IMG/VR virus record: IMGVR_UViG_3300012346_000220
Coordinates: 19,826-83,825 of that record
Reading direction: 5' to 3' (one strand)
Source of the DNA: a virus
Lineage: Duplodnaviria; Heunggongvirae; Uroviricota; Caudoviricetes
DNA: 64,000 nt
In this document: in pieces, positions 3,101-47,102 of the stretch
Layout: the number at the start of each line of letters is the position of its first letter
Position numbering within the stretch: the first letter of the stretch is position 1
The notes under the pieces: generated by a model
The model's input: only the letters and a program-made list of their open reading frames with translations
Told to the model about the DNA's origin: nothing
Database searches by the model: none
Position numbers and translations under genes: made by a program

Positions 3101-3799
3101 ATGGCAACCTCCGGCACATCCACATTCAACCTCGACTTGACGGAGATCGTTGAGGAGGCGTTTGAGCGCGTGGGCTCCGAGATGCGCACGGGCTACGACC
3201 TGCGTACGGCCCGCCGGTCGTTGAACCTGATGTTTGCTGACTGGGCAAACCGCGGCATCAACATGTGGACGTTCGAGCAGGGCTCGATTGCGCTGGTGGC
3301 AGGCACGGCAACCTACGACCTTCCGGCCGACACGGTGGACCTGCTTGAGCAAGTCATTCGCACCGGTGCGGGCAGCGCGTCGACACAGGCCGACCTGACC
3401 ATCACGCGTATCAGCGTCTCGACCTACGCCACGATCCCCAACAAGCTGCAACAGGCCCGACCCATTCAGGTCTGGATTGAGCGCTTGAACACACCGCGTA
3501 TCACCGTTTGGCCCGTGCCGGACGACAGCCAGCCATACACCTTCGTGTACTGGCGCATGAAGCGCATTCAAGATGCAGGCAACGGCGTCAACACAATGGA
3601 CATGCCTTTCCGGTTTATCCCGTGCATGGTGGCAGGCTTGGCCTATTACTTGGCCCTGAAGGTGCCCGGCGGTGCCGAGCGTCTGCCCGTGTTGAAGCAG
3701 CAGTACGACGAAGCGTGGCAGTTGGCCAGCGATGAGGACCGCGAAAAAGCGTCTGTCCGATTTGTGCCACGTCAGATGTTCATTGGAAGCGGTACGTAA
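3101..3799 (+). CDS. Hypothetical virion protein (possible head-tail adaptor)
   Basis: 232-aa ORF tightly packed in the structural block. No diagnostic motif recognised. Confidence 0.35.
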   Translation: MATSGTSTFNLDLTEIVEEAFERVGSEMRTGYDLRTARRSLNLMFADWANRGINMWTFEQGSIALVAGTATYDLPADTVDLLEQVIRTGAGSASTQADLTITRISVSTYATIPNKLQQARPIQVWIERLNTPRITVWPVPDDSQPYTFVYWRMKRIQDAGNGVNTMDMPFRFIPCMVAGLAYYLALKVPGGAERLPVLKQQYDEAWQLASDEDREKASVRFVPRQMFIGSGT

Positions 3800-4193: not shown

Positions 4194-4376
4194 ATGGACA
4201 AAAAAGATTTGAAGCAGGACAAGAAGATGGTCGCGGGCGCAGTGCACAAGCACGAGAAAGCCATGCACCCCGGCAAGCCGATGACCAAGCTTCGCGCTGG
4301 CGGCAAGACCAACAGCGATATGCTGAAGATGGGTCGCGGATTGGCCAAAGTTGCCAACCAAAAAGCAAAGGGTTAA
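4194..4376 (+). CDS. Small Lys-rich basic protein (family member 4)
   Basis: 60 aa. Motif KLRAGGKTNSDMLKMG resembles members 2 and 3. Confidence 0.4.
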   Translation: MDKKDLKQDKKMVAGAVHKHEKAMHPGKPMTKLRAGGKTNSDMLKMGRGLAKVANQKAKG

Positions 4377-4378
4377 TC

Positions 4379-4582
4379 ATGGCCACGTACCGCTCCCCCA
4401 AACCCGCTGCTACGCAAGCGGTGTTGCCCGACACGGACAACAAGAAGTACATGCGCGACATGAACGTCTCTGTGGGCACAAACCACAGCAACGACTACAA
4501 GCCAACCAAGACTTCGGGTATCAAAATCCGAGGTACTGGCTGTGCCACCAAAGGCGTGATGGCTAGAGGGCCGCTTGCCTGA
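4379..4582 (+). CDS. Small basic protein (family member 5)
   Basis: 67 aa, with a KPTKTSGIKIRGTGCATKG motif. Confidence 0.35.
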   Translation: MATYRSPKPAATQAVLPDTDNKKYMRDMNVSVGTNHSNDYKPTKTSGIKIRGTGCATKGVMARGPLA

Positions 4583-4584
4583 TT

Positions 4585-5274
4585 ATGAGCACGCCTGTTG
4601 CTATCTACAAAATTCAAAATGCCGTTGATGGCAGGATGTACATCGGGCAATCGGTGAATCCTGCACAACGCGCAAAAAGACATTTTTGGAAAAACAACAA
4701 GTGCGTCAAACTAGGTAATGCCCTCCAGCGTCACGGGCACAACGCATTTTCGTTCTCCGTTTTGTACTGGTGTAAAGACAAGGCTGATGCAAACGAAGTT
4801 GAGGCGTTGCTGATAGATTTAGGCGACACACGCGAAAACGGTTACAACATAACTCCCGGCGGTTATGGAACAGGCGCAGGACAAGACAACCCGTTCTTTG
4901 GTAGGCAGCACACCGCAGAAACGAAAGCACAGCTTTCGGAGGGTAAGCGCGGTGTACCGATGCCAGAAAGCGTGCGCCAAAAGATTGCAGCCGCCAACAG
5001 AAACCGTACAATGGCGGAGGCTACCAAAGAAAAACTTCGGGCTCGCCCAAAGTCAGATTTGTGCAGCATGCAGACGGCGAAAGCAAACCGCGCACGGGTT
5101 TGGACGGAGGAGTCCAAGGAAAAACTTGCAGCGCAAAACCGGGGAAAAAAGATGTCGGAAGAAGCGCGTTTGAAGATAGCCGCCGCAAACAAGCGTCGTG
5201 TTTGGTCGGCGGAGTCCCGCGCTAAGCTGTCCGCTTCCAAGAGTAAGGTAGAGCATGAACTACACCCAGCTTAA
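4585..5274 (+). CDS. GIY-YIG homing endonuclease with C-terminal NUMOD3-like repeats
   Basis: IYKI...YIGQS...R..H...NGYN GIY-YIG core. About four repeats of a K..LS/A..R.G helix motif. Inserted between structural genes. Confidence 0.8.
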   Translation: MSTPVAIYKIQNAVDGRMYIGQSVNPAQRAKRHFWKNNKCVKLGNALQRHGHNAFSFSVLYWCKDKADANEVEALLIDLGDTRENGYNITPGGYGTGAGQDNPFFGRQHTAETKAQLSEGKRGVPMPESVRQKIAAANRNRTMAEATKEKLRARPKSDLCSMQTAKANRARVWTEESKEKLAAQNRGKKMSEEARLKIAAANKRRVWSAESRAKLSASKSKVEHELHPA

Positions 5275-5911
5275 AGCGGCGATCATCGCCTACACGGAGA
5301 ATCAGGACACGTCGTTTGAGACGGAGATACCTGTCTTCGTGCAGCAGGCTGAGCAGCGCATTTACAACTCGGTGCAGTTCCCCTCCCTGCGTAAGAACGT
5401 CACAGGCACGACCACGGCAAGTAACAAATACTTGGAGTGCCCACTGGACTTCTTGGCCCCGTATTCTTTGGCGGTGATTGATGCCACGGGCGCGTACGAG
5501 TACTTGCTCAACAAGGACGTGAACTTCATCCGTCAGGCGTACCCCATCCCGACATCGACCGGGTTGCCCAAGTACTACGCGCTGTTTGGCCCACGATCGG
5601 ATAACGAAAATGAACTCACGTTCATCCTTGGCCCAACGCCTGCGGCAGCGTACGGCGTTGAGCTGCACTACTTCTATTACCCTGAGTCAATTGTTGACGC
5701 AGGTACTTCGTGGCTTGGTGACAATTTCGACTCTGTGCTTCTTTATGGTTCGCTGATCGAGGCGTACACGTACATGAAGGGTGAGCAGGACATGCTGACC
5801 TTGTACAACCAGAAGTTCATGGAAGCGCTTGCGTTGGCCAAACGTCTGGGGGATGGTATGGATCGTCAGGATGCCTACCGCTCTGGCCAATTCCGCCAGA
5901 AAGTGACCTGA
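5255..5911 (+). CDS. Hypothetical virion structural protein
   Basis: 218-aa ORF within the structural block. Confidence 0.35.
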   Translation: MNYTQLKAAIIAYTENQDTSFETEIPVFVQQAEQRIYNSVQFPSLRKNVTGTTTASNKYLECPLDFLAPYSLAVIDATGAYEYLLNKDVNFIRQAYPIPTSTGLPKYYALFGPRSDNENELTFILGPTPAAAYGVELHYFYYPESIVDAGTSWLGDNFDSVLLYGSLIEAYTYMKGEQDMLTLYNQKFMEALALAKRLGDGMDRQDAYRSGQFRQKVT

Positions 5912-17624: not shown

Positions 17625-18650
17625 ATGGCTGATCCAATCCAACAAAATGTATCGCAAACGTCGATCCCAGACTACGCTAAACCGTACGTCGAAACCCTGT
17701 TGGGGCAAACGCAGGCGTTGACAGACCTTGAGTACAACCCCTACATGCAGTACATGGGGGAGCGGCAAGCGCAGTTCACCCCGTTGCAGCAGCAGTCGTA
17801 CGAAAACGCTGCGTTGATGCAGACGGCGCCTCAGTTGGCGGACGCCACTGCACTGGCCGGGCAGGCGGGCTTGGGCGCACTGAATGCCAGCTTTACGTAC
17901 AACCCATACCAAGCGCAGTCGTTTACCGACAGCGGCAAAGCCGCCAGCTACATGTCGCCGTACATGCAGAACGTCGTGGATGTTCAGTCGCAGCAGGCGC
18001 GTCGTCAAGCTGACATCGCTGCGCAGACGCAGCAAGCCCAAGCCGCCCGTTCGGGTGCGTTTGGTGGCGCACGTGACTACATCTCCCGCTCTCAGGGAAA
18101 CGCAGAACTCCAGCGCAATCTGGCCAATATCCAAGCCACGGGTTCGCAGAACGCGTACCAGCAAGGCATGCAGCAGTTCAACGCCGAACAAGGCGCAAAC
18201 CAAGCAGCGGCCAACCTCAACGCACAGCAAGGCCAGTTTGGTGCAGGTCTGGGTCTGCAAGGTTTGCAAACAGCGCTCACCAGCGCCAACACCTTGGGCA
18301 ACTTAGGTAACCAGCAGTACACCCAGAACATGGGCGCTACCACTCTGCAAAACCAGTTCGGTGCTCAGCAGCAACAGCAGACGCAGAACATCTTGAACAA
18401 TCAGTACCAAGACTATCTGAACGCACAGAACTACCCATACAAGCAGTTGGGCTTTATGTCCGACATGCTGCGCGGCTTGCCGCTGACTCAACAGTCTTCG
18501 ACAATCTATCAGGCGGCACCCTCAACGGGTGCGCAGCTCATCGGCGCAGGCACTGCACTGGCCGGTGCGTCCAAACTGTTTGCAAAAGGCGGCGCTGTGA
18601 ACTCTCGACCAGCAGGTCTGGCCGACTTGGCTCTTTCTCGGATGGCGTAA
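17625..18650 (+). CDS. Gln/Asn/Ala-rich virion protein
   Basis: 341 aa, strongly Q/N/A/G-biased. Confidence 0.4.
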   Translation: MADPIQQNVSQTSIPDYAKPYVETLLGQTQALTDLEYNPYMQYMGERQAQFTPLQQQSYENAALMQTAPQLADATALAGQAGLGALNASFTYNPYQAQSFTDSGKAASYMSPYMQNVVDVQSQQARRQADIAAQTQQAQAARSGAFGGARDYISRSQGNAELQRNLANIQATGSQNAYQQGMQQFNAEQGANQAAANLNAQQGQFGAGLGLQGLQTALTSANTLGNLGNQQYTQNMGATTLQNQFGAQQQQQTQNILNNQYQDYLNAQNYPYKQLGFMSDMLRGLPLTQQSSTIYQAAPSTGAQLIGAGTALAGASKLFAKGGAVNSRPAGLADLALSRMA

Positions 18651-20310: not shown

Positions 20311-23300
20311 ATGGCCAAATACCTGACCCTACCTGACGGTTCTTCGTTTCAGATGAAGGAGGGGCAGACTCCCGCCGCAGCCATGCAAGAAGCGGTACAG
20401 CGCTTCCCCGAAGCGTTTGGTTTTGGCGAAGACAAACCAACGCAAGACACCACTGGTTTCAAAGCTGCCGCAGCCGCAGGCTTTGAGCGCCTCAAAGGCG
20501 AGACGGCGCTGACTGCCGGTAAGTTGGGCCTGATGGACACCGCAAAAGCGGAGCAGTACCAGAAGGAAAAAGAAGCCGCAGCGCAAGCCCGCTTCACGCC
20601 CACAGAAGACGGCTGGACCGAATCTCCTCTCCAGAAACTGAAAGAAACTGCTGGCGGCTCTTTGCCGTACATGCTGGCTCCTGTTGCAGCAGGCGCTGCT
20701 GCTTTGGCCGCTCCAGTATCCGCCCCGGTTGCTGCGGGCTTGGGTTTGGTAGGCGCAGGACTGGCGTCCACCGGGCAGTTCACGGGCTCCAACTTGGCCC
20801 GTCAGATGGACACCGGCAAGTCTCTTGAACAGACAAGTCTGGGCTCTGCCGTAGGCGCAGCCGTTCCTCAAGCGCTGATCGACACCGCTGCCATGGCCCT
20901 GCTGCCCGGCGTGGGCAAACTGTTCGGTTCTGTGGGCTCCAAGCTGACAACCGAGCAAGCCAAAGCGATTGCTTCCCAGACTCTGGGCAGAACAGTTGCC
21001 GACTACGCAGCCAAGACAGGTACGGCCATGGGCCGTGAGGGCGTTACCGAAGCCGCGCAACAACTGCTGGAGCGCGTACAGGCAGGTCTTGCCATCGCAG
21101 ACCCTGAAGCCCGCAAAGAGTACATCGACAGCTTCATCGGCGGAGCCGCCCTTGCAGGCGTAGGCGCACCAGTTGGCCGCGCCATTGAACGCAGCGGCGC
21201 AAAGTCTCAAGCAGCGGAAGCGGATCGTGCCGATCAAGCCAAAGCAGCAGCCGAGGCCGAAGCTGCCAAGAATCAGCCAGACGCCCTGCGCCAGCTAAGC
21301 AGCGATTTCAGCGCAGCGGATCAACAGCTTCAAGCCATCAACGCCAAGCTGGCAGAGATCAAACCCGGTAAGGGCGCGACAGCCGAGCAAAAGCAAGCGT
21401 ATGAAGCGCTTAAAGCGGAGCGTGCTGAGCTGCTGACCACCTACAAACCACTGCGCCAAGAGTACGCGAAGCGCAAGAGCGCTATCGACCAGTTGGACGC
21501 AGACCGCCAGACAGCTTTGGAAGTCGAAACTGCGGCCGGGCAAGAAGCTGCCAAGGAAGCTGTGCCTGCCGAAGAGCCCCAGCTCGACGTGCAAAAGCTC
21601 ATGTTGGAGCAAGACACACTGCGCAACCAGATTGCAGGCATTGAGGAACAGTTGGCCCAAGCTGCGCCAGAACAGTTTGACGCATTGAATGCCCAGCGCC
21701 AAGACTTGCAGCGCCGCATTGATGCCCGAGCTACGCTGATTGAAGAGCGTGGCGGTTCTCCGTTGGCGCGAGCGGAGTTTGAGCAAGCCACATCCGCCAA
21801 GATGCAGGCGATCGACACTCGTCTGGACAAGCTCAACGCCACCTACACCGCCGCACTTAGCAATAAAGACTACGACGCTGCGGCAAAAGCCAAGGACGAG
21901 TTGCTGACCCTGCGCCAAGAGCGTAACGACCTGACTACCAAAACAGCGCAGCAGATGCAGGCGCTGCAAGAGAAGCAGGCAGGGCTGGCGCAGCGCGGCC
22001 AGACACGTGACTTGTTTACGGAAGCTCCGGCTGCACCCACCGCCGCTGCGGACGAGCAGCTCAAGCAGCAGACACTGGAAGAAGAAAAACAACGTGCGTT
22101 GTACGGCCCGGAGTCAAAGAAGGCGTCGGCCGAGCAAGCGTTTGGCGAAACCGAAATCGGTCCTCGCGGTCAGTTGGAGCCCCTCACCCAGATGACGGAG
22201 CCGACTGCGCAGACCGGTATCAAGCCAAAGCAGTTGGCGCTGGTGGAGGAGACAACCGAGAAAGTATCCGCTGCACAAACAGCACTGGAAGACGCCGCCA
22301 AGACCAAAGACACGCAAGCAATTTACGCTGCCGCCGATGCACTCAACCAAGCCAAGAGCGAAGGCTCCCGTGCGCAAGATGAAGTGGGTCGTGGAATGTT
22401 CCGCCCCGTTGTGTTGGATTTGTTCAGCCCCGCCAACATCATCAACACGGCGATTCAAAGCGGCGACACCAAGCTCATCAACGACATCGCAACCCATGCC
22501 GATACTACGGCGCTGCGCACATCGTTGGATGAGAAGCTGAGCGAACGGGAAAGACTCGCCCGGTTGCTGGACACTCGCTTGGACTTGGGCGGTGAAGAGA
22601 AGGCCGCAACAGGCGAGAAGCTGAAGAGCGTCAAGCGCGAACGCGCTGATCTGTTCTCACAACTCTACGACGCCCGGCAGCAGGCGCTGTTTAAGAACGG
22701 CACGTACCCCGACCGTGAATTGCAGGCACTGTACGACCAAGGCGGTCCTGCCGCAGTTGAGTACGAGCGCGTCATGCAGGACGTTGAGGAACTATCCAAA
22801 AAGGTCACGACCAAGCAAGGCAACGCCAAGAAGTCTTTGTATGAACAGCTCGTTGACTTAGCTGCGCAGCACAGCGCACTTGTGGCGCAGATGGAGTCCG
22901 GTGTTGCTACACCAAACCTGCGCGAGAAGACGGCCGCACTGCAAGCCAAGACCGGCAAGGGTAAAACCCCGGCCGAGCGTCAGATGGACGCCGCCGAGAA
23001 GTACCAGCTTCAGCGCAAGATGGATGCGCTGGTCAACAAGTACAAAATGGTTGAGGGTCAGGTTGCCCCCATTCGTGACCAGATCACGAAGTTGTACAGC
23101 AGCTTGTACAAGACTACTCCGCTTGAGAAAGCCAGCACGATTGCTGAACGAAAAGAAAACGAGTCCGATGCGCAAGCCCGTGGCCCAAAGGCAGTCTCGC
23201 GCACAGCCAAGACTGCCGCACGTATTGCCAAGGGTGACGTGCGCAAAGAAGCCGAGACCTCCCAGAAGCTGCGCGATCTGGCGCGTGACTTGGGCATGGA

Positions 23301-26300
23301 AGAAGCCGAGTACAAAAAACTCAACGACAACTTGACGAAGCGGTTTGCTGCGTTGAAAGAGAAGTATGGCAAGTTTGACCCTGCGGTGACTTCTTTTCAG
23401 ATCAACATGGTCGACCAGTTGAACGAGAAGGCAATTGCGCTGGGCAAGGCCACGCCGGAGTACAAGGCAACGCTGAAAGAGCAGGTCGAGTACTTCAAAG
23501 AAGTGCTGCCAACCGCAGGCAAACAAACGCTTTCTACCAAGCGCACCGGCCAAGTCACGCGCAAGCAGAATGCTGCGCCAAGCCGTCTGGTGTCCTCCTC
23601 GCCTGAGAGCCGCGCACAGACTGACATTGAAGACCGGGCCGTGCGCATCAAGCGCGGCTCACTCAAGGACTTCCAAGAAGCGCTGGACTCCGAGAAGTAC
23701 GGCACTGCCTACCGTTTTAAAGAAGGCGAAGCCGACACCGTGGTTGATGCTGCGGAAGCCCAGAAGATGGTGGACGGCCTTGACCTGCCAGCCAACGTCA
23801 AGTTTGTGTACGCCCCCACATCGCGGCAAGTACCCGTGCGCTTGCTCAAATTGATGGCCAACGACGGCGTCGATGTTGTGGATGGCATGGTGCGCGGCGC
23901 AGTGTTCCCTGACGGCACGGTGTTGGTTATCGGTGACCAGCACGCCAACGTCAAAGACTTGGAAGAGACGATTGCCCACGAGCTGATCGGCCACTACGGT
24001 GTGGACACCATCATCGGGCTTGAGCGCCTGAATGCTTTTGCCAAGAAGACCGACGTGATTGAACTGGCTGAGCAGCTTGGCGGTAAAGCCTTGGTTGCGG
24101 ACGTCATGAACACCGTGCGGGCCAATGCCGACATGGGCCGCAGTGAAGAAGTGCAAAAGCTGCAAGCTCTGCGCGAGATCATTGCGCACACTGAAGAGGC
24201 CCGCATCACGGAAGCCTTCAAACAGAAAGCCGGTCGTTGGCTCAAGGAGCTGGTCGGTATGGTTCGCGCAGGTCTGCGCAGCATGGGGTTCAAGAGCTTG
24301 CCCGAGCTGTCTACGTCTGACGTGTTCTACATGCTCAAGCAGTCGCGCAAAGCGTTTGCCAACAAGACTATCGGGCCTTACAAAGCAGTCGATGGCGGCG
24401 TTGCTTTCCGTGTGCGCAACCAGCCACAGCCCTACAAAACTGTCGGCGGTCAGCCCAGCGCAGTCAACAACTTCTTGGGCAACGTGATGGGCCTTGCAGG
24501 CCGCGTGCAGTTCATCGACCAGTACGCAGCTTTGGATGCCGCTACTAAGAAGGGTTTGAGCGCCGGAGTCATCAGCAGCTTAGAAGCCACAAACGTCAAC
24601 TACCTGCTGCGCTTTGGCCAGCAGCGCAGCCAGTTTGCTGGCCAGTTCCTGACCAACGGCCCCGTCAAGGCGGAGATTACGCGCAAGGACGGCGGCACTG
24701 AGACGCTGTACCGCAGCACCAAAGGCACGTCCATGCTGGATGTGGCAGCTGCTTTGAACAAGGCCAAGATCGGAAATGACACCGAGCAAGAAGCCATGTT
24801 CACGCTGTACATGGCGGGCAAACGTGCCGCGCAAGTGGGCTGGGACAAACTGAACGTCACGAACGCCGCTGAGTCCAAGGCCGAATACAACGACGTGATG
24901 GCGCGTCTGGATGCCAACCCGCAGGCCAAGCAAGCGTTTGAGGACGCAGCCAAGCTGTACAAAGAGTACAACGCAGGCTTGATGGACTTCCTCGTCGATA
25001 CGGGCGCACTGCCCGCCAAGAAAGCTGCTGAACTGAAGGCCATCGACTACGTGCCGTTCTACCGCATCAACGCCAACGGCGAAGTGCAACTGATGGTGGA
25101 CAAAGAGCGCCCTGTGCGCATCGCCAACATCAAGGATCAGCCGCAGCTCAAGGAGCTGGTCGGCGGCAATGACGCCATCATGCCGATCTTCACCAGTTCG
25201 GCGCAGAACACGTTCATGATTGCTGGCATGGGCTTGCGCAACCAAGCGGTGAAGGAGACCTCCTTCATGCTGCAAAAGCTCGGCATCGCCAGCCGCGTAG
25301 CGTCCGGCAAAGGCCCACAAGGCGACAACGTCGTGCGCTTCTTCAAGAACGGTGAGCCGTACTACGCACTGATCGACACTGACGCTTACGGCGTGCCAGC
25401 AGAACTCATCGTGCGCGGCATGGATGGTATCAAGACCACGCTGCCTGCGGTCATCAAACTGCTCGGCATTCCGGCCAACATCTTGCGCTCATTCGTTGTG
25501 CGCAACCCCACCTACGCCGTGCGTCAGATCATCCGCGATCCGCTGAACGCTTGGATGACAACCGGCACTGACGCCGTGCCTGTGCTCTCGTCCATGAAAG
25601 AGCTGGCCAGCATGGTCGCTGGGCGCAGTGACGCTGAGAAGAAGCTCATGGAGACAGGCGCGATCAGCAGCAACGTCTACAGCGGCGATGAGCAAGACAT
25701 GGCCAAGTTCTTGAAGGACTTGTCGGCCGGTAAGACGGGCTGGGACAAAGCGCTGTCTGCGCTGGACACATTCGCCCTCCAAGGCGATGCGGCTACCCGC
25801 GCCGTGATCTACAAGGACTCGCTGGCCAAGGGCATGACGGAGCAGGAAGCTCTGCTGCGCACACTGGAGTCGATGAACTTCAGCCGCCGCGGTGTGTCCC
25901 CCAGCATGCAGGCGCTGTCCACCCTCATCCCGTTCTTCAACGCACAGGTACAGGGTCTGGACGTGATCTATCGCGCCATGAAAGGCGACATGCCTTTCAG
26001 CCAGCAACTCGACATCCGGGGCAAGATGGTGCGCCGTGGTTTGATGCTGGCCGCAGGCACGATTGCCTACGCCGCCATGATGGAGGACGATGAGGCATAC
26101 CAACGCGCCAAACCTGAAGAGCGCCTTGCCAACTGGTTCGTGTACTTGCCCGGTGTTGACGAGCCTGTGCGTGTACCAATCCCGTTTGAAATGGGCTTCT
26201 TGTTCAAGGCGCTGCCTGAAGCGGTGTACGCCATGGCCATGCAAGACGGCAAAGCTGACGCTGCACTGAGTGGATTGTCCAAGCTGGCTATGCAGACTGT

Positions 26301-26964
26301 GCCTTTGACCCTGCCGCAAGCGGTCAAGCCGATCACTGAGGCGATACTGGGCAAGTCGTTCTACAGCGGCGACATCGAATCTACACGCGAGAAAGACGTG
26401 TTGGCCACTGAGCGCTACCGAGACTCCACCACGGAGTTGGCCAAGACGATTGGCGCAGTAACTGGAAAAGCGGGCGTCAGCCCGATCATGCTGGACTACT
26501 TGATGCGCGGGTATACCGGCGGTCTGGGGATTGCGCTTGTGCAGCTCGCCAACCCGTTGCTGGCTTCCAGCGATAAGGCAGAAGTCGCACAGCCAACAAC
26601 CAAGATCAGCAAGCAACCTTTCATCGGCGGGCTGTTCCAACCTGTTGAGGGCCGGGGTACGTTGGACGAAGCCTACGACCGCATGAAAGAAATTCAGCAG
26701 GTCAAGGGCACGTTCAACGACATGGTTGCCAAAGGCCAGAGAGCAGAAGCTATGGCGTTTGCACAGGAGTACTCTGACAAACTGTCGGCGGCTTCGATCT
26801 CCGGCAGCGTGCAAAAGCAGTTGGGCGAGTTGGCCAAGCTGGAGCGCCAGATCAAGAGCAGCCCAAGCCTGACCACTGAGCAGAAAGATGCGCGTCTGGC
26901 GCAGCTCGACAAGCTCAAGACAGCGACAGCCCGGCAGTTCCTTGGCGTGACCGCTCAGCGATAA
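20311..26964 (+). CDS. Giant virion-module protein (2217 aa): coiled-coil-rich N-terminal ~1000 aa, central zincin-like HExxH (IAHELIGHYG) region, large C-terminal domain of unknown function
   Basis: Single uninterrupted ORF. The HELIGH motif at about aa 1215 is read directly. The N-terminal half is a long, charged, heptad-like low-complexity region. Last gene of the structural block. Confidence 0.6.
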   Translation: MAKYLTLPDGSSFQMKEGQTPAAAMQEAVQRFPEAFGFGEDKPTQDTTGFKAAAAAGFERLKGETALTAGKLGLMDTAKAEQYQKEKEAAAQARFTPTEDGWTESPLQKLKETAGGSLPYMLAPVAAGAAALAAPVSAPVAAGLGLVGAGLASTGQFTGSNLARQMDTGKSLEQTSLGSAVGAAVPQALIDTAAMALLPGVGKLFGSVGSKLTTEQAKAIASQTLGRTVADYAAKTGTAMGREGVTEAAQQLLERVQAGLAIADPEARKEYIDSFIGGAALAGVGAPVGRAIERSGAKSQAAEADRADQAKAAAEAEAAKNQPDALRQLSSDFSAADQQLQAINAKLAEIKPGKGATAEQKQAYEALKAERAELLTTYKPLRQEYAKRKSAIDQLDADRQTALEVETAAGQEAAKEAVPAEEPQLDVQKLMLEQDTLRNQIAGIEEQLAQAAPEQFDALNAQRQDLQRRIDARATLIEERGGSPLARAEFEQATSAKMQAIDTRLDKLNATYTAALSNKDYDAAAKAKDELLTLRQERNDLTTKTAQQMQALQEKQAGLAQRGQTRDLFTEAPAAPTAAADEQLKQQTLEEEKQRALYGPESKKASAEQAFGETEIGPRGQLEPLTQMTEPTAQTGIKPKQLALVEETTEKVSAAQTALEDAAKTKDTQAIYAAADALNQAKSEGSRAQDEVGRGMFRPVVLDLFSPANIINTAIQSGDTKLINDIATHADTTALRTSLDEKLSERERLARLLDTRLDLGGEEKAATGEKLKSVKRERADLFSQLYDARQQALFKNGTYPDRELQALYDQGGPAAVEYERVMQDVEELSKKVTTKQGNAKKSLYEQLVDLAAQHSALVAQMESGVATPNLREKTAALQAKTGKGKTPAERQMDAAEKYQLQRKMDALVNKYKMVEGQVAPIRDQITKLYSSLYKTTPLEKASTIAERKENESDAQARGPKAVSRTAKTAARIAKGDVRKEAETSQKLRDLARDLGMEEAEYKKLNDNLTKRFAALKEKYGKFDPAVTSFQINMVDQLNEKAIALGKATPEYKATLKEQVEYFKEVLPTAGKQTLSTKRTGQVTRKQNAAPSRLVSSSPESRAQTDIEDRAVRIKRGSLKDFQEALDSEKYGTAYRFKEGEADTVVDAAEAQKMVDGLDLPANVKFVYAPTSRQVPVRLLKLMANDGVDVVDGMVRGAVFPDGTVLVIGDQHANVKDLEETIAHELIGHYGVDTIIGLERLNAFAKKTDVIELAEQLGGKALVADVMNTVRANADMGRSEEVQKLQALREIIAHTEEARITEAFKQKAGRWLKELVGMVRAGLRSMGFKSLPELSTSDVFYMLKQSRKAFANKTIGPYKAVDGGVAFRVRNQPQPYKTVGGQPSAVNNFLGNVMGLAGRVQFIDQYAALDAATKKGLSAGVISSLEATNVNYLLRFGQQRSQFAGQFLTNGPVKAEITRKDGGTETLYRSTKGTSMLDVAAALNKAKIGNDTEQEAMFTLYMAGKRAAQVGWDKLNVTNAAESKAEYNDVMARLDANPQAKQAFEDAAKLYKEYNAGLMDFLVDTGALPAKKAAELKAIDYVPFYRINANGEVQLMVDKERPVRIANIKDQPQLKELVGGNDAIMPIFTSSAQNTFMIAGMGLRNQAVKETSFMLQKLGIASRVASGKGPQGDNVVRFFKNGEPYYALIDTDAYGVPAELIVRGMDGIKTTLPAVIKLLGIPANILRSFVVRNPTYAVRQIIRDPLNAWMTTGTDAVPVLSSMKELASMVAGRSDAEKKLMETGAISSNVYSGDEQDMAKFLKDLSAGKTGWDKALSALDTFALQGDAATRAVIYKDSLAKGMTEQEALLRTLESMNFSRRGVSPSMQALSTLIPFFNAQVQGLDVIYRAMKGDMPFSQQLDIRGKMVRRGLMLAAGTIAYAAMMEDDEAYQRAKPEERLANWFVYLPGVDEPVRVPIPFEMGFLFKALPEAVYAMAMQDGKADAALSGLSKLAMQTVPLTLPQAVKPITEAILGKSFYSGDIESTREKDVLATERYRDSTTELAKTIGAVTGKAGVSPIMLDYLMRGYTGGLGIALVQLANPLLASSDKAEVAQPTTKISKQPFIGGLFQPVEGRGTLDEAYDRMKEIQQVKGTFNDMVAKGQRAEAMAFAQEYSDKLSAASISGSVQKQLGELAKLERQIKSSPSLTTEQKDARLAQLDKLKTATARQFLGVTAQR

Positions 26965-27074
26965 AACCACACCCCGCTCAGTCCCTTGTGGACGGCGGGG
27001 TAGGCTTTAGCGTCAAAGATGCGGCATCGTAGCGCTTCACTGAGACCTAGCTTGCGCACTTTCTCGGAGTTGAG

Positions 27075-27096
27075 GCAGGGGACGAAAAACCCCTGC
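27075..27096. terminator. Convergent-operon boundary hairpin (GCAGGGG-N8-CCCCTGC); a second hairpin lies at about 26973..27001
   Basis: GC-rich inverted repeats between the stop of the giant gene (26964) and the stop of the primase-helicase (27103). No strong U-run on either strand. Confidence 0.4.
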
Positions 27097-27102
27097 CCCC
27101 GC

Positions 27103-30090
27103 TCAACCCGCACCCAAGGGAATGCTCTGGAGTACTGAGTCATCGAGTGTGCTCATGTTCGCGCTCAGGCGCAGTGTTGCCACACGCATCGGAGGTCCGT
27201 CCGTCTTGGCCAGCATGTCCTTCTTGGGGACTTGCTGCACGATGAACGACTGCGCAATGTCCTGTTTGAACGTGGCGTAGCTGAAGCTCATGTTGGAGCA
27301 GTACGCACGCAGCAGGCGCTCCTCGATGTAGAAGTCGATGTAACCCGGATTGACGCCATGCTCGACCCGGCCCATGATCTCTTGCCGTGTGGTGGTCTTG
27401 CCCACACTCGTGCCGTCACCGAACATCGCAGCAGGGCCAGCCTTCTCGCCGTACTTGACGATGACGAACTTGCCTTGGAACTCTTGCGTGAACGCGTTGA
27501 GCACATCTTCTGCTGTGCGCTTGCCGCCCTTGATAGCTTGACGCTGGTGGTCGATCTGGCGACGGTAGGATTCGATGATCTCCTGCAAGGGGATGTTGAC
27601 GATACCTGCGTGCTTGTCGCTCAAAAGCAAACCTGCCGCAACGATTGCGCCCACACCCGCCATCCAGTACCGCTCGTCGTTGGGGGCCTTGTACTCGGTG
27701 TACATGCGGCGCACACACTCAGGCACCAGTTCACGCAACATGCTGGCGTTGTCCACCAGATACTGCGCCAAGATTTCGCCTGCTACAGCGAAGTTGAACG
27801 GCAGCGTCTTGATGATCTCGATCTCCTCTTGGGACCACTCCAACTTCACGTCCATGTTGAACTCGATCATGCGGCGCAGCTCACCCTCGGAGGAGTGCTT
27901 GCGCTCACCTGTCATGTAGTCAACGGCAGGGCGGTTGGAGGACATCAGCGCCAGCGTGGCCCATGTTGACAGGTTCAGCCGTTCTTTGTTGGTGCCCGAC
28001 TCCATACGCTCTTTGCCGCGACCTTCGCTCATACTGAACAAGAAAGCAGGGAACCACTCGAAGTCCTTGCGGTTGTTGGTTGTGATCTCGTCCGTGATGA
28101 GCGGCAAGCTGCGCAGGTGGCCAAGGCGTTGCTGCATGGCAACAGGCGATGTGCCCGAGCCTGTGCGGTAGTGGATGGGATGGCCCCAGATGGATGCTGC
28201 TGCGTCCAGTGACAACGACTTACCAGTGCCTGACTCAGTGGACGCTACGTGGACTGTCATGCCCAGCAGGCCCGTGAACTTCATCAAGGGGGCGGCAGCA
28301 CCGGCCAGCACAACGGCCAACTGATCCCACATCTTGCGCCGCACCATCATGTTGATGACGTTTCTCCACGCATCGAGTGTGCCCGTGGGCTTGGTGCTGT
28401 TCACAATGTTTTGCAGCTCCGTCATCGGAACCATGACGGGCTGGCGATTGGCGCTGTACACGCGGCTTGCAAACACAAACGTACCGTCGTCTTGCCAGCC
28501 GTAGCTTGGCGGCATGTTGATCGGGGACCGTTCCACGCTGATCTTCTCAACGCTGGCGCGGACGTAGTCGTAGAAGTTCTTGTCGTTGCCGGAGCCAAAT
28601 GCTGCCATGACGTTCTGGTTGGCCAAGTGCTTGATCGTCTCGTCCTTGCTGGCCAGACATTTCTGCGGCACCAGTACGTTGTGAAGTTGCTTGTTCTTGA
28701 TGACGCAGAAGTGCACTTCGTGACTACCGTTGTTGTTCAGCACGTCCACCGGGAAAATAGTGTTGGAGCAAAGCAACAGTTGCTTCGTCACCTTGTGACC
28801 GTCCGTGTCTTCCTCGATGCGCTCCAAGAACACGCCGCCCCTTGCGCCAAAGGCATAACCCCGTGGTGGCTCAGGCTGGGCAATCAGTACCGTGTCGGCC
28901 TCAGTATCGGCATCGGGCGCTGCACTGCTTTCAACCTCGACCATAGTCTCGTCAGTGGTCACGGCCATCTCTCGGCCCCACAGCAGTGGGTTGGTGATCT
29001 TGCCCCAGTGGGAGCAGCCACGGCACACGCCGGGATTCATGTCGTCCATCGCTGCGCATGAGTACGGGCCTTTGATCTCGGCCAGCTTCTGGTGCATGCG
29101 CTCGTGCGGGTATGGGTGCAGGTCGCTCAGCCATTCCGAAGCCTTCGTACCGTCTGCGCAGACCTTGGCCCAACTGAGTACCCCTCGCCAGATCGGCTCC
29201 ATGCCGTCATCGCTTGCGTTCTCCACGTAGTTCTGGAGCTGGGCGCAGCCTGAGCCTTGCTTTGTTTTGACCAGAATTTTTTTGAACAACGTCACGCTGT
29301 TTTGCGCAAGCGCAGTCAACATGGTCGGAGGGTTGACACCCGTCGGCCTCTGCCCCGGCAGGGCCAGCGTGGAGCTGGAGGGCATCTTCACAAACTCTGG
29401 ACCGAACCCCTCGGCCGTCATGATGGCCTCGATGTCGTCCACAGCAAAGCGGTCGCCCTCGGAGAGACTGCGCACACGCGTAGCTGCGCGTACAGCCTTG
29501 CCGTTCTTGATCCCGGTGTTGATGGTGTCAGGCACACGCAAGACGCGGGAAGCATCGCCTGTGACAGCGGTGTCGATGGCCAGCCCGTGCTTTAAGCACA
29601 GCTCTTTGAAGCGCTTGGCAAAGGCGTACCACTCGTCCTTGAACAGCATAGTGTCCAGCGGCCAGTAGGCGTGAATGCCCCCGCCGGAGTGAACCATCCA
29701 AGGATCGCCCAGCGCAGCCAGCCCTGTGTCTTCGCAGAACTTCTGCAACGCCTGCGCCGCAGCTTTGGCGCTGGGGTATGACTTGTCCTTGATGACCAGC
29801 TCACCCTCTTTGTCTGGCACAGGGATGTCTTTGGGGTGGTTGCAGTCAAGGTCCACGGCCAGCACTTGGCTGGCGTGCATGTTGTCCTTGGTGCGGTCTT
29901 TGTCCGTGCCGAACGTGCCGAGTGCGAAGTACGTGTCGTACCCAGCTTGCGCCCACTTCTCAATGGTGGGCATGAGTTCCTCAAGTGTTTGTCCGAAGAC
30001 GTGTTGTTTCTTCTTCGAGAGTTCTACCGCGCAGTAATAGCCATTACCCGGAGACGGCAAAACCGCCGCCATCAAATCGAGCGGAGTCAT
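27103..30090 (-). CDS. Bifunctional primase-polymerase (AEP/prim-pol) / SF3 (D5-like) helicase
   Basis: N-terminal prim-pol-like region (DLD...HSGGGIHAYW). Downstream Walker A GTGKSLSLDAAASIWG, typical of SF3 helicases. Confidence 0.75.
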   Translation of the reverse strand: MTPLDLMAAVLPSPGNGYYCAVELSKKKQHVFGQTLEELMPTIEKWAQAGYDTYFALGTFGTDKDRTKDNMHASQVLAVDLDCNHPKDIPVPDKEGELVIKDKSYPSAKAAAQALQKFCEDTGLAALGDPWMVHSGGGIHAYWPLDTMLFKDEWYAFAKRFKELCLKHGLAIDTAVTGDASRVLRVPDTINTGIKNGKAVRAATRVRSLSEGDRFAVDDIEAIMTAEGFGPEFVKMPSSSTLALPGQRPTGVNPPTMLTALAQNSVTLFKKILVKTKQGSGCAQLQNYVENASDDGMEPIWRGVLSWAKVCADGTKASEWLSDLHPYPHERMHQKLAEIKGPYSCAAMDDMNPGVCRGCSHWGKITNPLLWGREMAVTTDETMVEVESSAAPDADTEADTVLIAQPEPPRGYAFGARGGVFLERIEEDTDGHKVTKQLLLCSNTIFPVDVLNNNGSHEVHFCVIKNKQLHNVLVPQKCLASKDETIKHLANQNVMAAFGSGNDKNFYDYVRASVEKISVERSPINMPPSYGWQDDGTFVFASRVYSANRQPVMVPMTELQNIVNSTKPTGTLDAWRNVINMMVRRKMWDQLAVVLAGAAAPLMKFTGLLGMTVHVASTESGTGKSLSLDAAASIWGHPIHYRTGSGTSPVAMQQRLGHLRSLPLITDEITTNNRKDFEWFPAFLFSMSEGRGKERMESGTNKERLNLSTWATLALMSSNRPAVDYMTGERKHSSEGELRRMIEFNMDVKLEWSQEEIEIIKTLPFNFAVAGEILAQYLVDNASMLRELVPECVRRMYTEYKAPNDERYWMAGVGAIVAAGLLLSDKHAGIVNIPLQEIIESYRRQIDHQRQAIKGGKRTAEDVLNAFTQEFQGKFVIVKYGEKAGPAAMFGDGTSVGKTTTRQEIMGRVEHGVNPGYIDFYIEERLLRAYCSNMSFSYATFKQDIAQSFIVQQVPKKDMLAKTDGPPMRVATLRLSANMSTLDDSVLQSIPLGAG

Positions 30091-43996: not shown

Positions 43997-44043
43997 GTTT
44001 TCTCCTTAAAACTTTATTTTGCTTGCCTAACCTTACTTTTTGC

Positions 44044-44715
44044 TTACGCCTCTCGCTTTAATCGCCTTGTTTCTGCGTTGTAGTGCTTGGCAATTTCAAT
44101 CAAGCCTTCATGGGTGTACGGCACTTCGCCTTTGTGCGTTGTTTTTGGTGTCAAAAGTGCCTCCTCTACCGTCATTCCGCTTGCAATCCTACGAACAATT
44201 GTGGTGTTAGACAAATAGCCACCAGTCACGCGACTCCATTCGTTTGCAGTCAAAGTCAGGCCATCAAACTCAATTGCATAATTCCCCTTTATTGTGTGCA
44301 ATTCTGGGTAGTTCCTTCGTGTATTACACACTCGGCATAACGGGCGCAAATTGTCGGGGATGTTGTTTTGAGGGTTGTTGTCTTTGTGGTCAATGTGTAC
44401 CGTTTCCCATGTCTCTGGTTTTCCGCATAACTCGCACGAATGAAGCGAGTAGCCAATTCGGTCAAACACTACTTTGCGATGCTCTGAAACATACCCTTGT
44501 GTGTCAGCAAGTGGATGGCTTGGCAAATACAGGCGCTGATAACCACGCCCAGGCATGGTGACTCGTTCTTGTCTACTGTAACCAAGCTCCTGTTTTTTTA
44601 TGGTCAACTTTGTGTCAGTTGTACCGTTTCTCATAACCCTAAAATAGTGCTTTTGGCAAAGGCAAGCGGCTTTGTACCTTACCTGCCCATCACAGTTTTC
44701 AACTTTGCATTGCAT
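44044..44715 (-). CDS. HNH endonuclease with N-terminal Cys-rich region
   Basis: HIDHKDNNPQNNIPDNLRPLCRVCN HNH motif. Start taken at ATG 44715. Confidence 0.7.
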   Translation of the reverse strand: MQCKVENCDGQVRYKAACLCQKHYFRVMRNGTTDTKLTIKKQELGYSRQERVTMPGRGYQRLYLPSHPLADTQGYVSEHRKVVFDRIGYSLHSCELCGKPETWETVHIDHKDNNPQNNIPDNLRPLCRVCNTRRNYPELHTIKGNYAIEFDGLTLTANEWSRVTGGYLSNTTIVRRIASGMTVEEALLTPKTTHKGEVPYTHEGLIEIAKHYNAETRRLKREA

Positions 44716-44847
44716 TTCAATTCCCCAAAAGAAAACCCCCCGTGACACAGAGGATCAAGCTCCATGTGACAGGGGGTAGGCCGGGGAAGGCTTTTGTGTA
44801 TCTGCGCCTTGATCTCGCAACACAAAAACCCTCTTGCCGCAATTATA

Positions 44848-46151: not shown

Positions 46152-46199
46152 ATCTCTCCTTAGAAAACTTCATTTTGCGGTTGTTTTCTGACTTGATTC

Positions 46200-46924: not shown

Positions 46925-47102
46925 CTTTCTCTTGTTCTTTCAATAACTTGATGCGCTCTGCCACAGCTACACCAAGTCCTTTGTAGTACCCGGATTCGTG
47001 CTGTTCCAACTCGCGAGTCCATCTCCGCATCTCGTCTATCCATGCTGGCATCATGGCAAATCTTGCTATGTGGCTCACCATGTGTTCTAAGTGATTGTTC
47101 AT
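46905..47102 (-). CDS. Hypothetical protein
   Basis: 65 aa. Confidence 0.3.
   Translation of the reverse strand: MNNHLEHMVSHIARFAMMPAWIDEMRRWTRELEQHESGYYKGLGVAVAERIKLLKEQEKGGKSND

What the first reader, a model, noticed from the sequence alone, without database searches (positions are those of the whole stretch)
20311..26964. 2217-aa giant ORF closing the virion block: coiled-coil N-half plus zincin-like HExxH core plus unknown C-terminal domain
A single 6.65-kb ORF ends the virion-gene block. The first ~1000 aa are a low-complexity, heptad-like, A/E/K/Q-rich region. An IAHELIGHYG (HExxH-type) motif sits near aa 1215. About 900 aa of no recognisable family follow.

I searched by eye for T7/N4-type RNAP motifs, as in the N4 virion RNAP, and found none. 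This is not the N4 virion RNAP. It could be an ejected multi-domain effector, a polyvalent or DarB-like anti-defence protein, or an internal core protein with peptidase activity.
Basis: partly seen in the sequence, partly recalled or inferred. Interest (0 to 1): 0.75.

Follow-up and report, generated by a model that had tools for sequence, protein, structure and literature searches.

The report
Giant virion-packaged polyvalent-type phage protein
The 2,217-residue gene is a real, stripped-down member of the known "large polyvalent proteins" that short-tailed phages probably pack into the capsid and eject into the host; its metal-binding domain is related to one in the giant phage N4 virion RNA polymerase, so it is a new member of a known kind, not a new kind of system.

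Summary
The ORF (20311-26964, +, 2217 aa) is real and conserved end to end in about 76 metagenomic relatives (49-100% identity).

- The motif IAHELIGHYG (aa 1221-1230) is HExxxH. There is no HExxH anywhere in the protein.
- The C-terminus is not unknown. It carries Pfam LPD38 (E 6e-32), the hallmark of phage-type large polyvalent proteins (Iyer 2017).
- Only aa ~311-1124 are A/E/K/Q-rich spacer. Aa 1-310 are a separate conserved domain with Gly/Ala-rich hydrophobic segments.

Anatomy: N-domain, ~800-aa helical spacer, ~230-aa metallopeptidase-like domain, ~870-aa alpha-helical C-module containing LPD38. In the metallopeptidase-like domain H1223, E1224 and H1228 are 100% conserved and H1211 and E1289 98% conserved across 130 divergent relatives.

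The metallopeptidase-like domain is homologous to the C1 domain of N4-like virion RNA polymerases (hhalign 80%, E 1.4e-5, clean decoy controls). Fold searches against solved zincins are weak.

Relatives swap cargo in the same slot, for example an ADP-ribosyltransferase. Cultured counterparts are virion-associated (JC1 gp69, phi24B gp47) or needed for efficient infection (PTXU04 gp25).

Best reading: a minimal, capsid-packaged, ejected protein. New member of a known kind; moderate interest.

The parts
20311..26964 (+). Complete ORF, 2217 aa plus stop codon: the giant polyvalent-type protein
   Evidence: ORF listing and translation. An identical 2217-aa protein and about 76 end-to-end homologues exist in metagenomes.
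20311..21240 (+). N-domain, aa 1-310. Conserved; Gly/Ala-rich hydrophobic segments at aa 116-154 (nt 20656-20772) and aa 180-206 (nt 20848-20928). Inferred to interact with membrane.
   Evidence: 57-70% column identity in the family. Kyte-Doolittle maxima are 1.77 and 1.53. The domain is present at the N-terminus of 97 of 113 long distant representatives and in none of 6 cultured-phage proteins. Similarity to the vRNAP NTD is weak only (hhalign E 0.035).
21241..23682 (+). Spacer, aa 311-1124. A/E/K/Q-rich, Pro/Gly-poor, length-variable; probably an extended alpha-helical or partly coiled-coil linker.
   Evidence: Composition. This is the least conserved region and has the most gaps. The heptad signal is weak. 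There are no internal repeats. Compositional PDB profile hits go to TolA, myosin, eIF3a and tape-measure proteins.
23683..24375 (+). Metallopeptidase-like (C1-type, zincin-like) domain, aa 1125-1355
23941..23943 (+). H1211, conserved His at the end of a beta strand
   Evidence: 98% conserved in 130 divergent representatives. It lies at the end of strand E79-83 of the model, local residue 87. It matches the strand-end His that Iyer 2017 describe.
23977..23994 (+). H1223-E-L-I-G-H1228: the HExxxH motif on the long helix
   Evidence: H, E and H are each 100% conserved in 130 representatives. 140 of 149 relatives have HExxxH and 8 have HExxH at the homologous site. It lies in helix 90-105 of the model.
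24175..24177 (+). E1289 in 'ALREIIAH', candidate third metal ligand
   Evidence: 98% conserved. It lies in helix 155-172 of the model. It aligns with the Glu of 'ALNEFMAW' in N4 gp50 C1.
24355..26961 (+). C-module, aa 1349-2217. Mostly alpha-helical; the most conserved part of the protein. Shared with giant proteins of Stx, Vibrio, Aeromonas, Bacillus, Burkholderia and cyanobacterial phages.
26089..26586 (+). LPD38 domain (Pfam PF18857), aa 1927-2092
   Evidence: E 6e-32, 111.7 bits against a cutoff of 27.
26971..27097 (.). Two GC-rich hairpins (about 26971-27001 and 27074-27097) in the convergent intergenic region. Inferred to be transcription stops for the giant gene and the opposing primase gene.
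   Evidence: RNA fold of 26962-27105: -59 kcal/mol, z -2.94 against shuffles. No T-tract terminators were called there.
17625..18650 (+). Upstream 341-aa ORF with a weak match to a 'DNA ejection protein' PHROG. Possible partner; this is context only.
   Evidence: phrog_4287, E 8.3e-16. No BLAST similarity to the loci of cultured phages.

Best explanation
This is a capsid-packaged, ejected internal virion protein of a roughly 64-kb podophage. It is a minimal member of the phage-type 'large polyvalent protein' class.

Shown here: it has four parts.
- A conserved N-domain with hydrophobic Gly/Ala-rich segments.
- A spacer of about 800 aa that is A/E/K/Q-rich and variable in length.
- A domain of about 230 aa with an invariant H...HExxxH...E constellation. 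It is homologous to the C1 (HExxH, zincin-like) domain of N4-like virion RNA polymerases.
- An alpha-helical C-module of about 870 aa containing LPD38, shared with virion-associated giant proteins of many phages.

Inferred mechanism: the C1-like domain plus C-module is the constant 'chassis' that gets the protein into the capsid and out through the tail. After ejection the N-domain engages the envelope or inner membrane. The spacer could reach about 120 nm if fully helical (1.5 A per residue), which is ample to bridge the envelope. The metal site acts as a Zn-dependent peptidase, either on the protein itself (processing or release) or on a host target.

Unlike its larger relatives, this protein carries no recognisable extra effector domain. 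Its role is therefore probably a core part of genome delivery rather than accessory anti-defence.
For: Class membership:
- LPD38 at E 6e-32. [quoted passage not shown]
- The C-module matches giant proteins in 329 phage records.

Virion association and requirement for infection, by homology only:
- JC1 gp69 (LPD38 at 4196-4401) was detected in CsCl-purified virions and ends the virion module.
- phi24B gp47 is abundant in virions by MS and was proposed to be an ejection protein.
- PTXU04 gp25 (2197 aa, LPD38 only, HExxxH at aa 1161) is critical for efficient infection.

Synteny: the gene is the last virion-block gene, followed by a convergent replication module, here and in relatives. N4-like genomes have the same arrangement.

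Modularity:
- Relatives of about 3 kaa keep aa 1-~1131 and 1349-2217 but replace the slot contents.
- One relative carries ART-PolyVal at E 2.6e-26.
- Cultured counterparts carry helicase/MTase, ddrB-ParB, LPD5/LPD1/MuF_C or SLT/SNF2.

Metal site:
- H1223, E1224 and H1228 are 100% conserved, H1211 and E1289 98%, in 130 representatives.
- 8 of 149 homologues have canonical HExxH at the same site.
- The AF2 model places the motif on a helix after a beta-sheet.
- hhalign to vRNAP C1 gives 79.9%, E 1.4e-5. Decoy scores were 7.8-16.9 against 42.9 for the real alignment.
- The HExxH unit of the 3-kaa relatives matches C1 at 96.8%, E 2.5e-10.
- Iyer 2017 describe HEXXXH and strand-end-His variants of polyvalent-protein MPTases.

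Link to N4:
- Mosaic proteins P0266, P0260 and P0270 combine a vRNAP-type NTD with this HExxxH domain and the LPD38 C-module.
- The N4 NTD inserts into membranes and gp50 is ejected as 'beads on a string'.
Against: - There is no direct evidence that this particular protein is in virions or is ejected. All such evidence is by homology, at 22-26% identity and limited to the C-module.
- No peptidase activity has been shown for any member, including N4 C1.
- The hydrophobic N-segments are Gly/Ala-rich with modest hydrophobicity. Similarity to the N4 NTD is not significant (E 0.035).
- The spacer's heptad signal is weak.
- The C-module has no solved homologue and no detectable similarity to N4 C2, so its role as a 'chassis' is inferred from conservation and position only.
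Confidence: 0.6

Rival explanations
1. It is a purely structural ejection or conduit protein. The protein would act like a tape measure or trans-envelope tube component, and the H...HExxxH...E site would be a structural or regulatory metal site with no proteolysis. The N4 CTD, which regulates the RNAP allosterically, would be the precedent.
For: - PTXU04 gp25, which has no recognisable effector domain, is needed for efficient infection.
- The spacer resembles TolA and tape-measure proteins in composition.
- The N4 CTD (C1 plus C2) has a non-proteolytic regulatory role, and N4 vRNAP is packaged unprocessed.
- Fold searches do not recover zincins convincingly.
Against: - The general-base Glu (E1224) is 100% conserved together with both His and the distal Glu in 130 divergent representatives. 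That is the pattern of an active hydrolase, not just a metal clamp.
- No tape-measure family aligns end to end.
Confidence: 0.2
2. It is an accessory anti-defence effector, DarB-like or otherwise. It would be injected to neutralise restriction, CRISPR or other defences and would be dispensable on defenceless hosts.
For: - Homologous C-modules terminate proteins annotated as DarB-like with MTase and SNF2 domains, such as JC1 gp69 and Vibrio D274.
- Iyer 2017 interpret polyvalent proteins as conflict effectors.
- A relative carries an ADP-ribosyltransferase.
Against: - This protein has no methyltransferase, helicase, ART, nuclease or other recognised effector domain.
- The closest architectural analogue is needed for efficient infection.
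- The whole 2.2-kaa architecture is conserved down to 49% identity, which fits a core function better than an arms-race accessory.
Confidence: 0.1
3. It is a cell-wall-degrading virion enzyme. The metallopeptidase-like domain would cut peptidoglycan cross-links during entry, as proposed for phi24B gp47.
For: - The phi24B preprint proposes that the metallopeptidase domain of gp47 helps degrade peptidoglycan.
- JC1 gp69 carries an SLT lytic transglycosylase at its N-terminus, so wall-degrading modules do occur on this scaffold.
Against: - The domain has no significant match to any Pfam model, including the peptidoglycan peptidase families such as M15, M23 and LAS.
- Its detectable homologue is the vRNAP C1 domain, which according to the N4 model refolds in the cytoplasm.
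Confidence: 0.08

Closest known systems
Phage-type large polyvalent proteins with C-terminal LPD38 (Iyer, Burroughs, Anand, de Souza, Aravind 2017, PMC5512222)
   Same: - LPD38 lies near the C-terminus.
- There is a zincin-like MPTase-type domain with the HEXXXH variant and a strand-end His that the paper describes.
- The gene is next to virion genes.
- Cargo is modular in relatives.
   Different: - There is no recognisable effector domain such as a methylase, helicase, ART, RNase or ParB. It is a near-minimal version.
- Pfam's polyvalent MPTase models do not detect its HExxxH domain.
Escherichia phage PTXU04 gp25 (PTXU04_00025, 2197-2198 aa)
   Same: - Almost the same length.
- LPD38 is the only Pfam hit.
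- HExxxHYG lies about 1000 aa from the C-terminus.
- It is the large last gene of the plus-strand virion block, separated from the convergent genes only by two small ORFs.
- It was shown to be critical for efficient infection.
   Different: - Only the C-module aligns, at about 23% identity.
- The N-domain is not shared.
- The host and phage lineage are different.
Stx phage phi24B gp47 / Burkholderia phage JC1 gp69 (Bcep22-type 'DarB-like')
   Same: - The C-module with LPD38 is homologous.
- Both were detected in purified virions.
- The gene closes the virion module.
   Different: They are larger (2.8 and 4.5 kaa) and carry LPD5/LPD1/MuF_C, or SLT, MTase, SNF2 helicase and LPD3. These domains are absent here.
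Coliphage N4 virion RNA polymerase gp50 (Schitoviridae vRNAP)
   Same: - The domain order is the same: a membrane-interacting N-domain, a low-complexity linker, a zincin-like domain of about 230-250 aa, then a large alpha-helical C-terminal domain with no solved homologue.
- The C1 domain is homologous (hhalign 79.9%, E 1.4e-5).
- Mosaic relatives carry a true vRNAP-type NTD.
- The synteny is the same, with a convergent replication module downstream.
   Different: - There is no RNA polymerase domain.
- The motif is HExxxH, not HExxH.
- C2 and the LPD38 C-module show no detectable similarity.
- N-domain similarity is not significant (E 0.035).
Podophage ejection proteins (T7 gp14/15/16, P22 gp7/16/20)
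   Same: Proposed role only: packaged inside the capsid, ejected before or with the DNA, and bridging the envelope. This rests on background knowledge and the reviews listed.
   Different: No sequence or fold relationship was found. Here a single giant chain replaces several smaller proteins.

Membership tests
Phage-type large polyvalent protein (Iyer et al. 2017) | Carries an LPD-type domain restricted to the class; LPD38 is reported only in phage-type members | tested here: met
   PF18857 LPD38 at aa 1927-2092, E 6e-32, 111.7 bits against a cutoff of 27. The restriction to phage-type members is stated in the paper.
Phage-type large polyvalent protein (Iyer et al. 2017) | Several unrelated domains in one giant polypeptide, with domain shuffling among relatives | tested here: met
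   There are four regions with separate conservation and homology. Relatives replace the slot contents, including with ART-PolyVal. Cultured counterparts carry other cargo.
Phage-type large polyvalent protein (Iyer et al. 2017) | Encoded among phage virion or packaging genes | tested here: met
   It follows SU10-type adaptor, tail fibre, endolysin, virion structural and ejection-like ORFs. Relatives lie in contigs of about 64 kb with the same order. Portal and terminase genes were not identified inside the window.
Phage-type large polyvalent protein (Iyer et al. 2017) | Packaged in the capsid and delivered into the host | not testable with these tools
   The only support is homology to JC1 gp69 and phi24B gp47, which are positive in virion MS.
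Zincin-like metallopeptidase (polyvalent-protein MPTase, HEXXXH variant) | HExxH or HExxxH on an alpha-helix, with His, Glu and His conserved | tested here: met
   HELIGH at aa 1223-1228. It lies in helix 90-105 of a model with pLDDT 85.6. Conservation is 100% in 130 representatives. 8 of 149 homologues have HExxH at the same site.
Zincin-like metallopeptidase (polyvalent-protein MPTase, HEXXXH variant) | Third ligand (Glu) on a later helix | tested here: inconclusive
   E1289 is 98% conserved and lies on helix 155-172.
Zincin-like metallopeptidase (polyvalent-protein MPTase, HEXXXH variant) | Core of an N-terminal helix plus a three-stranded sheet before the active-site helix | tested here: met
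   The secondary-structure order in the model is H23-31, E40-44, H52-60, E70-74, E79-83, H90-105. This tests topology only.
Zincin-like metallopeptidase (polyvalent-protein MPTase, HEXXXH variant) | Significant fold or profile match to recognised zincins | tested here: inconclusive
- Foldseek: none at E<=1e-3.
- Pfam: DUF2268, M76 and M48 only below threshold.
- PDB profile: 3e11 at E 1.6.
- Indirect support: hhalign to vRNAP C1 at E 1.4e-5. Iyer 2017 linked that domain to zincins by HHpred.
Zincin-like metallopeptidase (polyvalent-protein MPTase, HEXXXH variant) | Zn binding and peptidase activity | not testable with these tools
   This needs biochemistry.
N4-like virion RNA polymerase (Schitoviridae vRNAP) | T7-like single-subunit RNAP domain | tested here: not met
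   There is no Pfam RNAP hit. The N4 RNAP domain (aa 1007-2101) has no BLAST hit in the window protein or in any of 271 relatives.
N4-like virion RNA polymerase (Schitoviridae vRNAP) | C1 (HExxH) domain | tested here: met
   hhalign probability 79.9%, E 1.4e-5, 132 columns. 20 shuffled decoys scored 7.8-16.9 against 42.9 for the real alignment.
N4-like virion RNA polymerase (Schitoviridae vRNAP) | vRNAP-type NTD and C2 domains | tested here: not met
   - NTD: E 0.035 over 52 columns.
- C2: E 0.074, and the patches are not co-linear with the BLAST patches.
- Pfam LPD38 does not hit N4 C2.
DarB-like antirestriction protein | N6-adenine methyltransferase plus SF2/SNF2 helicase (with LPD36) | tested here: not met
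   No such Pfam or PHROG hits, even at E<=1.
Tape measure protein | End-to-end match to a tape-measure family; encoded in a long-tail module | tested here: not met
   - No tape-measure Pfam or PHROG hit.
- Only compositionally biased hits of the spacer to two solved tape-measure proteins (E 6e-4 and 8e-3).
- The context is podovirus-like, with SU10-type adaptors.

The most novel reading that the evidence does not exclude
This family and the N4-like vRNAPs would be versions of one modular protein-delivery chassis. The chassis would be a membrane-engaging N-domain, a linker, a C1 zincin-like domain and a large helical C-domain. Phages would insert arbitrary cargo into it, such as an RNAP, an ART or methylase-helicases.

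The window protein would be the essentially cargo-less minimal form. The conserved HExxxH peptidase would be the device that releases or activates the parts after ejection. That would define the minimal sequence needed to package a protein into a podophage capsid and inject it into a cell.
Probability: 0.2. Interest if true: 0.7.

Novelty: new member of a known kind. Interest (0 to 1): 0.4.

Why it matters
How giant virion proteins of 2-4.5 kaa are packaged, threaded through a short tail and put to work in the host is an open question. Both the phi24B and N4 papers raise it explicitly.

This family is abundant in metagenomes. The metallopeptidase-like domain alone has 512 clusters at 50% identity. 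The family offers a nearly cargo-free version of the scaffold.

That makes it a good place to ask three things:
- Which part is the packaging and ejection signal.
- Whether the invariant H...HExxxH...E site is a working peptidase.
- Whether the slot can carry foreign cargo.

The practical result for annotation is that the 'unknown' C-terminus is LPD38 and the motif is HExxxH. Neither Pfam nor PHROGs currently models the metallopeptidase-like domain.

Tried and rejected
- **Near-DNA search against phages:** no match.
- **Sequence searches of the metallopeptidase-like domain and the C-module against PDB:** nothing significant.
- **Word-indexed homologue search with the metallopeptidase-like domain alone:** only two fragments.
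- **Foldseek of that domain's model against PDB:** nothing.
- **Pfam on the ~1000-aa alternative cargo of the 3-kaa relatives:** no family.
- **hhalign of this domain against that relatives' HExxH unit directly:** weak (E 0.078), although both match vRNAP C1.
- **Homology of the C-module to N4 C2:** rejected for lack of support. Profile E is 0.07-0.4, the patches are not co-linear, and there is no LPD38 hit in N4.
- **Homology of the N-domain to the N4 NTD:** not established for this protein (E 0.035). It is established only for the mosaic relatives P0266, P0260, P0267 and P0270.
- **Upstream ORFs against cultured-phage loci:** no similarity.
- **Exact-sequence contig look-up of P0001:** not on record.
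- **Genome-collection scan:** one uninformative MAG contig.
- **H1293 as a ligand:** rejected, because it is only 55% conserved.

Full report
**1. The observation.**

The ORF at 20311..26964 (+) is real: ATG start, 2217 codons plus stop. An identical protein and about 120 listed close relatives exist in metagenomic assemblies, out of 1076 with E<=1e-5. About 76 of the listed relatives are collinear over the full length at 49-100% identity. The N-terminus is conserved even in distant relatives (consensus M..Y..LP.G), which supports the start codon.

The gene is the last plus-strand gene after several virion ORFs:
- two SU10-type adaptor ORFs;
- tail-fibre-like ORFs;
- an endolysin;
- a 698-aa virion structural protein;
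- a 341-aa ORF matching a 'DNA ejection protein' PHROG.

It converges on a minus-strand DUF927-type primase/helicase gene. A relative in a 63,994-bp contig shows the same order. There the giant gene is followed on the opposite strand by an SNF2 helicase, a PD-(D/E)XK nuclease and a family A DNA polymerase. Two GC-rich hairpins lie in the convergent intergenic space (z -2.94).

**2.

*The motif.* IAHELIGHYG sits at aa 1221-1230 and reads H-E-L-I-G-H, which is HExxxH. The protein contains no HExxH at all. The motif is nonetheless meaningful:
- The protein has only six His and no Cys.
- The chance expectation of such a motif is about 0.001.
- H1211, H1223, H1228 and H1293 are invariant in 31 full-length homologues, whereas the two N-terminal His are not.

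*The 'coiled-coil N-half'.* This is two things.
- Aa 1-310 are a well-conserved domain with Gly/Ala-rich hydrophobic stretches at aa 116-154 and 180-206.
- Aa ~311-1124 are an A/E/K/Q-rich, Pro/Gly-poor stretch. It is the least conserved and most indel-rich part, has no internal repeats and only a weak heptad signal.
- A profile of the family hits TolA, myosin, eIF3a and two tape-measure proteins in PDB across this stretch, with heavy compositional bias. I read that as 'extended helical spacer', not as homology.

*The C-terminus.* It is not unknown. Pfam LPD38 matches aa 1927-2092 at E 6e-32, and PHROGs 9854 and 18222 cover aa ~1545-2214.

**3. The C-module and its relatives.**

tblastn against 50,697 phage records finds 329 records. 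All matches are confined to aa ~1460-2211 at 22-26% identity. They fall in giant ORFs of these phages:
- Stx-converting phages;
- Vibrio, Aeromonas and Escherichia (PTXU04, Pondi) phages;
- Bacillus megaterium podophages;
- Burkholderia JC1;
- Pelagibacter phages;
- phages of cyanobacteria.

I fetched six of these. Each ends with LPD38 about 110-320 aa from its C-terminus, and the upstream cargo differs:

| Phage | Upstream cargo |
|---|---|
| Vibrio D274 | ResIII/Helicase_C plus methyltransferase |
| Aeromonas phiARM81mr | ddrB-ParB plus methyltransferase |
| Stx2 phage | LPD5, LPD1, MuF_C |
| Burkholderia JC1 | SLT, Eco57I-type methylase, SNF2, LPD3 |
| PTXU04 gp25, Bacillus Palmer gp20 | nothing recognisable |

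Published work on these counterparts:
- JC1 gp69 was found in CsCl-purified virions and closes the virion module.
- phi24B gp47 is abundant in virions by MS, invisible in cryo-EM, and proposed to be an ejection protein.
- PTXU04_00025 was shown by CRISPRi-ART to be critical for efficient infection.

**4. The HExxxH domain.**

*Distribution.* Relatives of about 3 kaa share aa 1-~1131 and aa 1349-2217 with the query but lack this domain. Their slot instead begins with a canonical HExxH unit (HEGTH or HELSH). That unit is followed by about 800 aa of unknown sequence or, in P0107, by an ART-PolyVal ADP-ribosyltransferase at E 2.6e-26.

An exhaustive HMMER search with a family profile of aa 1125-1355 found 512 representative clusters at E<=1e-3, and 213 at E<=1e-10. 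Nearly all lie in proteins of 1.2-3.9 kaa. In 118 of them the domain ends a median 884 aa (IQR 874-900) from the C-terminus, so it forms a fixed pair with the C-module.

*Conservation.*
- 140 of 149 relatives have HExxxH and 8 have HExxH at the homologous position.
- Across 130 divergent representatives H1223, E1224 and H1228 are 100% conserved.
- H1211, T1220 and E1289 are 98% conserved.
- H1293 is only 55% conserved.

*Model.* The AF2 model (pLDDT 85.6, pTM 0.82) runs helix, strand, helix, strand, strand, then a long helix bearing HExxxH, then a helical bundle whose helix 155-172 carries E1289. H1211 ends the last strand.

This is the arrangement Iyer et al. (2017) describe for polyvalent-protein zincin-like peptidases, including an HEXXXH variant and a variant with a conserved His at the end of strand 2.

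**5. How strong is 'zincin'?**

Direct tests are weak:
- Foldseek against PDB gives nothing at E<=1e-3.
- No Pfam zincin model passes threshold. Scanning 29 divergent members individually, the only recurrent families are DUF2268 'predicted Zn-dependent protease' (3 members, best E 0.007) and Peptidase_M76 (3 members). Peptidase_M48 matched one member.
- A PDB profile search aligns the TxxHExxxHxGxD stretch with the 3e11 zincin-like protease at E 1.6.

I therefore rate the fold as probable but not demonstrated.

**6. The link to the N4 virion RNA polymerase.**

The 2026 N4 structure paper describes gp50 as follows:
- an NTD with membrane-spanning helices that inserts into nanodiscs;
- a low-complexity linker;
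- the RNAP domain;
- a CTD made of C1 (aa 2124-2375, HExxH) and C2 (aa 2376-3500, alpha-helical, no structural homologue).

That is the same order of parts as here, minus the RNAP. I fetched N4 gp50 and eight diverse Schitoviridae vRNAPs and compared profiles.

| Comparison | Result |
|---|---|
| HExxxH domain vs vRNAP C1 | 79.9% probability, E 1.4e-5, 132 columns, score 42.9 |
| Same, 20 column-shuffled decoys | scores 7.8-16.9 |
| Same, reversed C1 | E 0.18 |
| HExxxH domain vs NTD / C2 | E 0.6 / 0.3 |
| HExxH unit of the 3-kaa relatives vs C1 | 96.8% probability, E 2.5e-10 |
| N-domain vs vRNAP NTD | E 0.035, 52 columns |
| C-module vs C2 | E 0.074; patches not co-linear with BLAST patches; no LPD38 hit in N4 |

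The C1 alignment pairs HExxxH with HELVH and 'ALREIIAH' with 'ALNEFMAW'.

Mosaic proteins exist. P0266, P0260 and P0270 combine a true vRNAP-type NTD (E 2.8e-8, 1.9e-8, 2.8e-6) with this HExxxH domain and an LPD38-type C-module (E 1e-16, 7e-15, 8e-46). None of the 271 proteins examined has an RNAP domain.

So the protein is not a vRNAP, but it shares the C1 domain with vRNAPs and belongs to a pool of giant proteins that exchange N-domains with them. N4-like genomes also place the vRNAP gene last in the virion block, converging on replication genes.

**7. Best explanation and its limits.**

*Shown:* the four-part anatomy; membership of the LPD38 polyvalent class; the conserved metal-ligand constellation; homology of that domain to vRNAP C1; cargo swapping among relatives; and virion-block synteny.

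*Inferred:*
- The protein is packaged in the capsid and ejected.
- The C1-like domain plus C-module is the constant chassis.
- The N-domain engages a membrane.
- The spacer (814 residues, about 120 nm if fully helical at 1.5 A per residue) bridges the envelope.
- The metal site is a working peptidase, acting on the protein itself or on a host target.

Because no extra effector domain is recognisable, and the closest analogue is needed for infection, I favour a core genome-delivery role over an accessory anti-defence role.

The main rivals are a non-catalytic structural or regulatory metal site, an anti-defence effector, and a peptidoglycan peptidase.

**8. Novelty.**

The class, the LPD38 domain, the HEXXXH variant and virion association of relatives are all published. 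This is a new and abundant member family, and a particularly minimal one.

Three points I did not find stated in the papers read: the fixed pairing of the C1-type domain with the ~880-aa C-module, the explicit profile link of this HExxxH domain to vRNAP C1, and the NTD-swapped mosaics. They are incremental. Interest is moderate.

Noticed in passing
window 3101-3799 (+), 4585-5274 (+), 5255-5911 (+): Two ORFs both match Pfam SU10_adaptor (E 1.5e-13 and 2.1e-24). Between them lies a GIY-YIG plus NUMOD3 ORF that looks like a homing endonuclease (E 2.2e-11). This could be paralogous adaptors, or an adaptor gene neighbourhood invaded by a homing endonuclease.
   Followed up: no
window ~44000-64000: GC content drops from about 0.57 (1-44 kb) to 0.43-0.51. 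The exact protein's contig is 99 kb, whereas many of the relatives' longest contigs cluster at 61-66 kb. The low-GC part may be a mosaic early region, a neighbouring element or an assembly join. No tRNA genes were found in the window.
   Followed up: no
window 26962-27105: The convergent intergenic region between the giant gene and the primase gene folds into two GC-rich hairpins (-59 kcal/mol, z -2.94). They lack T-tracts, so the simple terminator scan missed them.
   Followed up: partly
relatives P0030, P0058, P0116, P0082 and others (slot at roughly aa 1140-2180 of those proteins): The ~3-kaa relatives carry about 800 aa after their HExxH unit with no Pfam match at all. This stretch includes a conserved Cys-containing motif 'GCAGTPWCTGAS'. 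It is an uncharacterised cargo domain on the same scaffold.
   Followed up: partly
L001, L003-L006 giant ORFs; N4 gp50 aa 3206-3232 (L009): Each of five cultured-phage proteins examined (the Stx2 protein is the exception) has a strongly hydrophobic segment of about 20 aa immediately upstream of LPD38, roughly 270-325 aa from the C-terminus. N4 gp50 has one at the same distance from its C-terminus (KD 1.82). In the window protein the equivalent helix (aa 1910-1924) is only moderately hydrophobic.
   Followed up: partly
proteins P0266, P0260, P0270, P0267: These mosaic giant proteins join a Schitoviridae vRNAP-type NTD to the HExxxH domain without any RNAP domain. All except P0267 also carry the LPD38 C-module. 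P0267 has a third, unidentified C-terminal region of 1229 aa.
   Followed up: partly
window 20311-26964 (whole protein): The protein has no cysteine in 2217 residues and only 6 histidines, 4 of which lie in the metallopeptidase-like domain. Avoiding Cys may suit a protein that is threaded unfolded through the tail and the periplasm. This is speculative.
   Followed up: no
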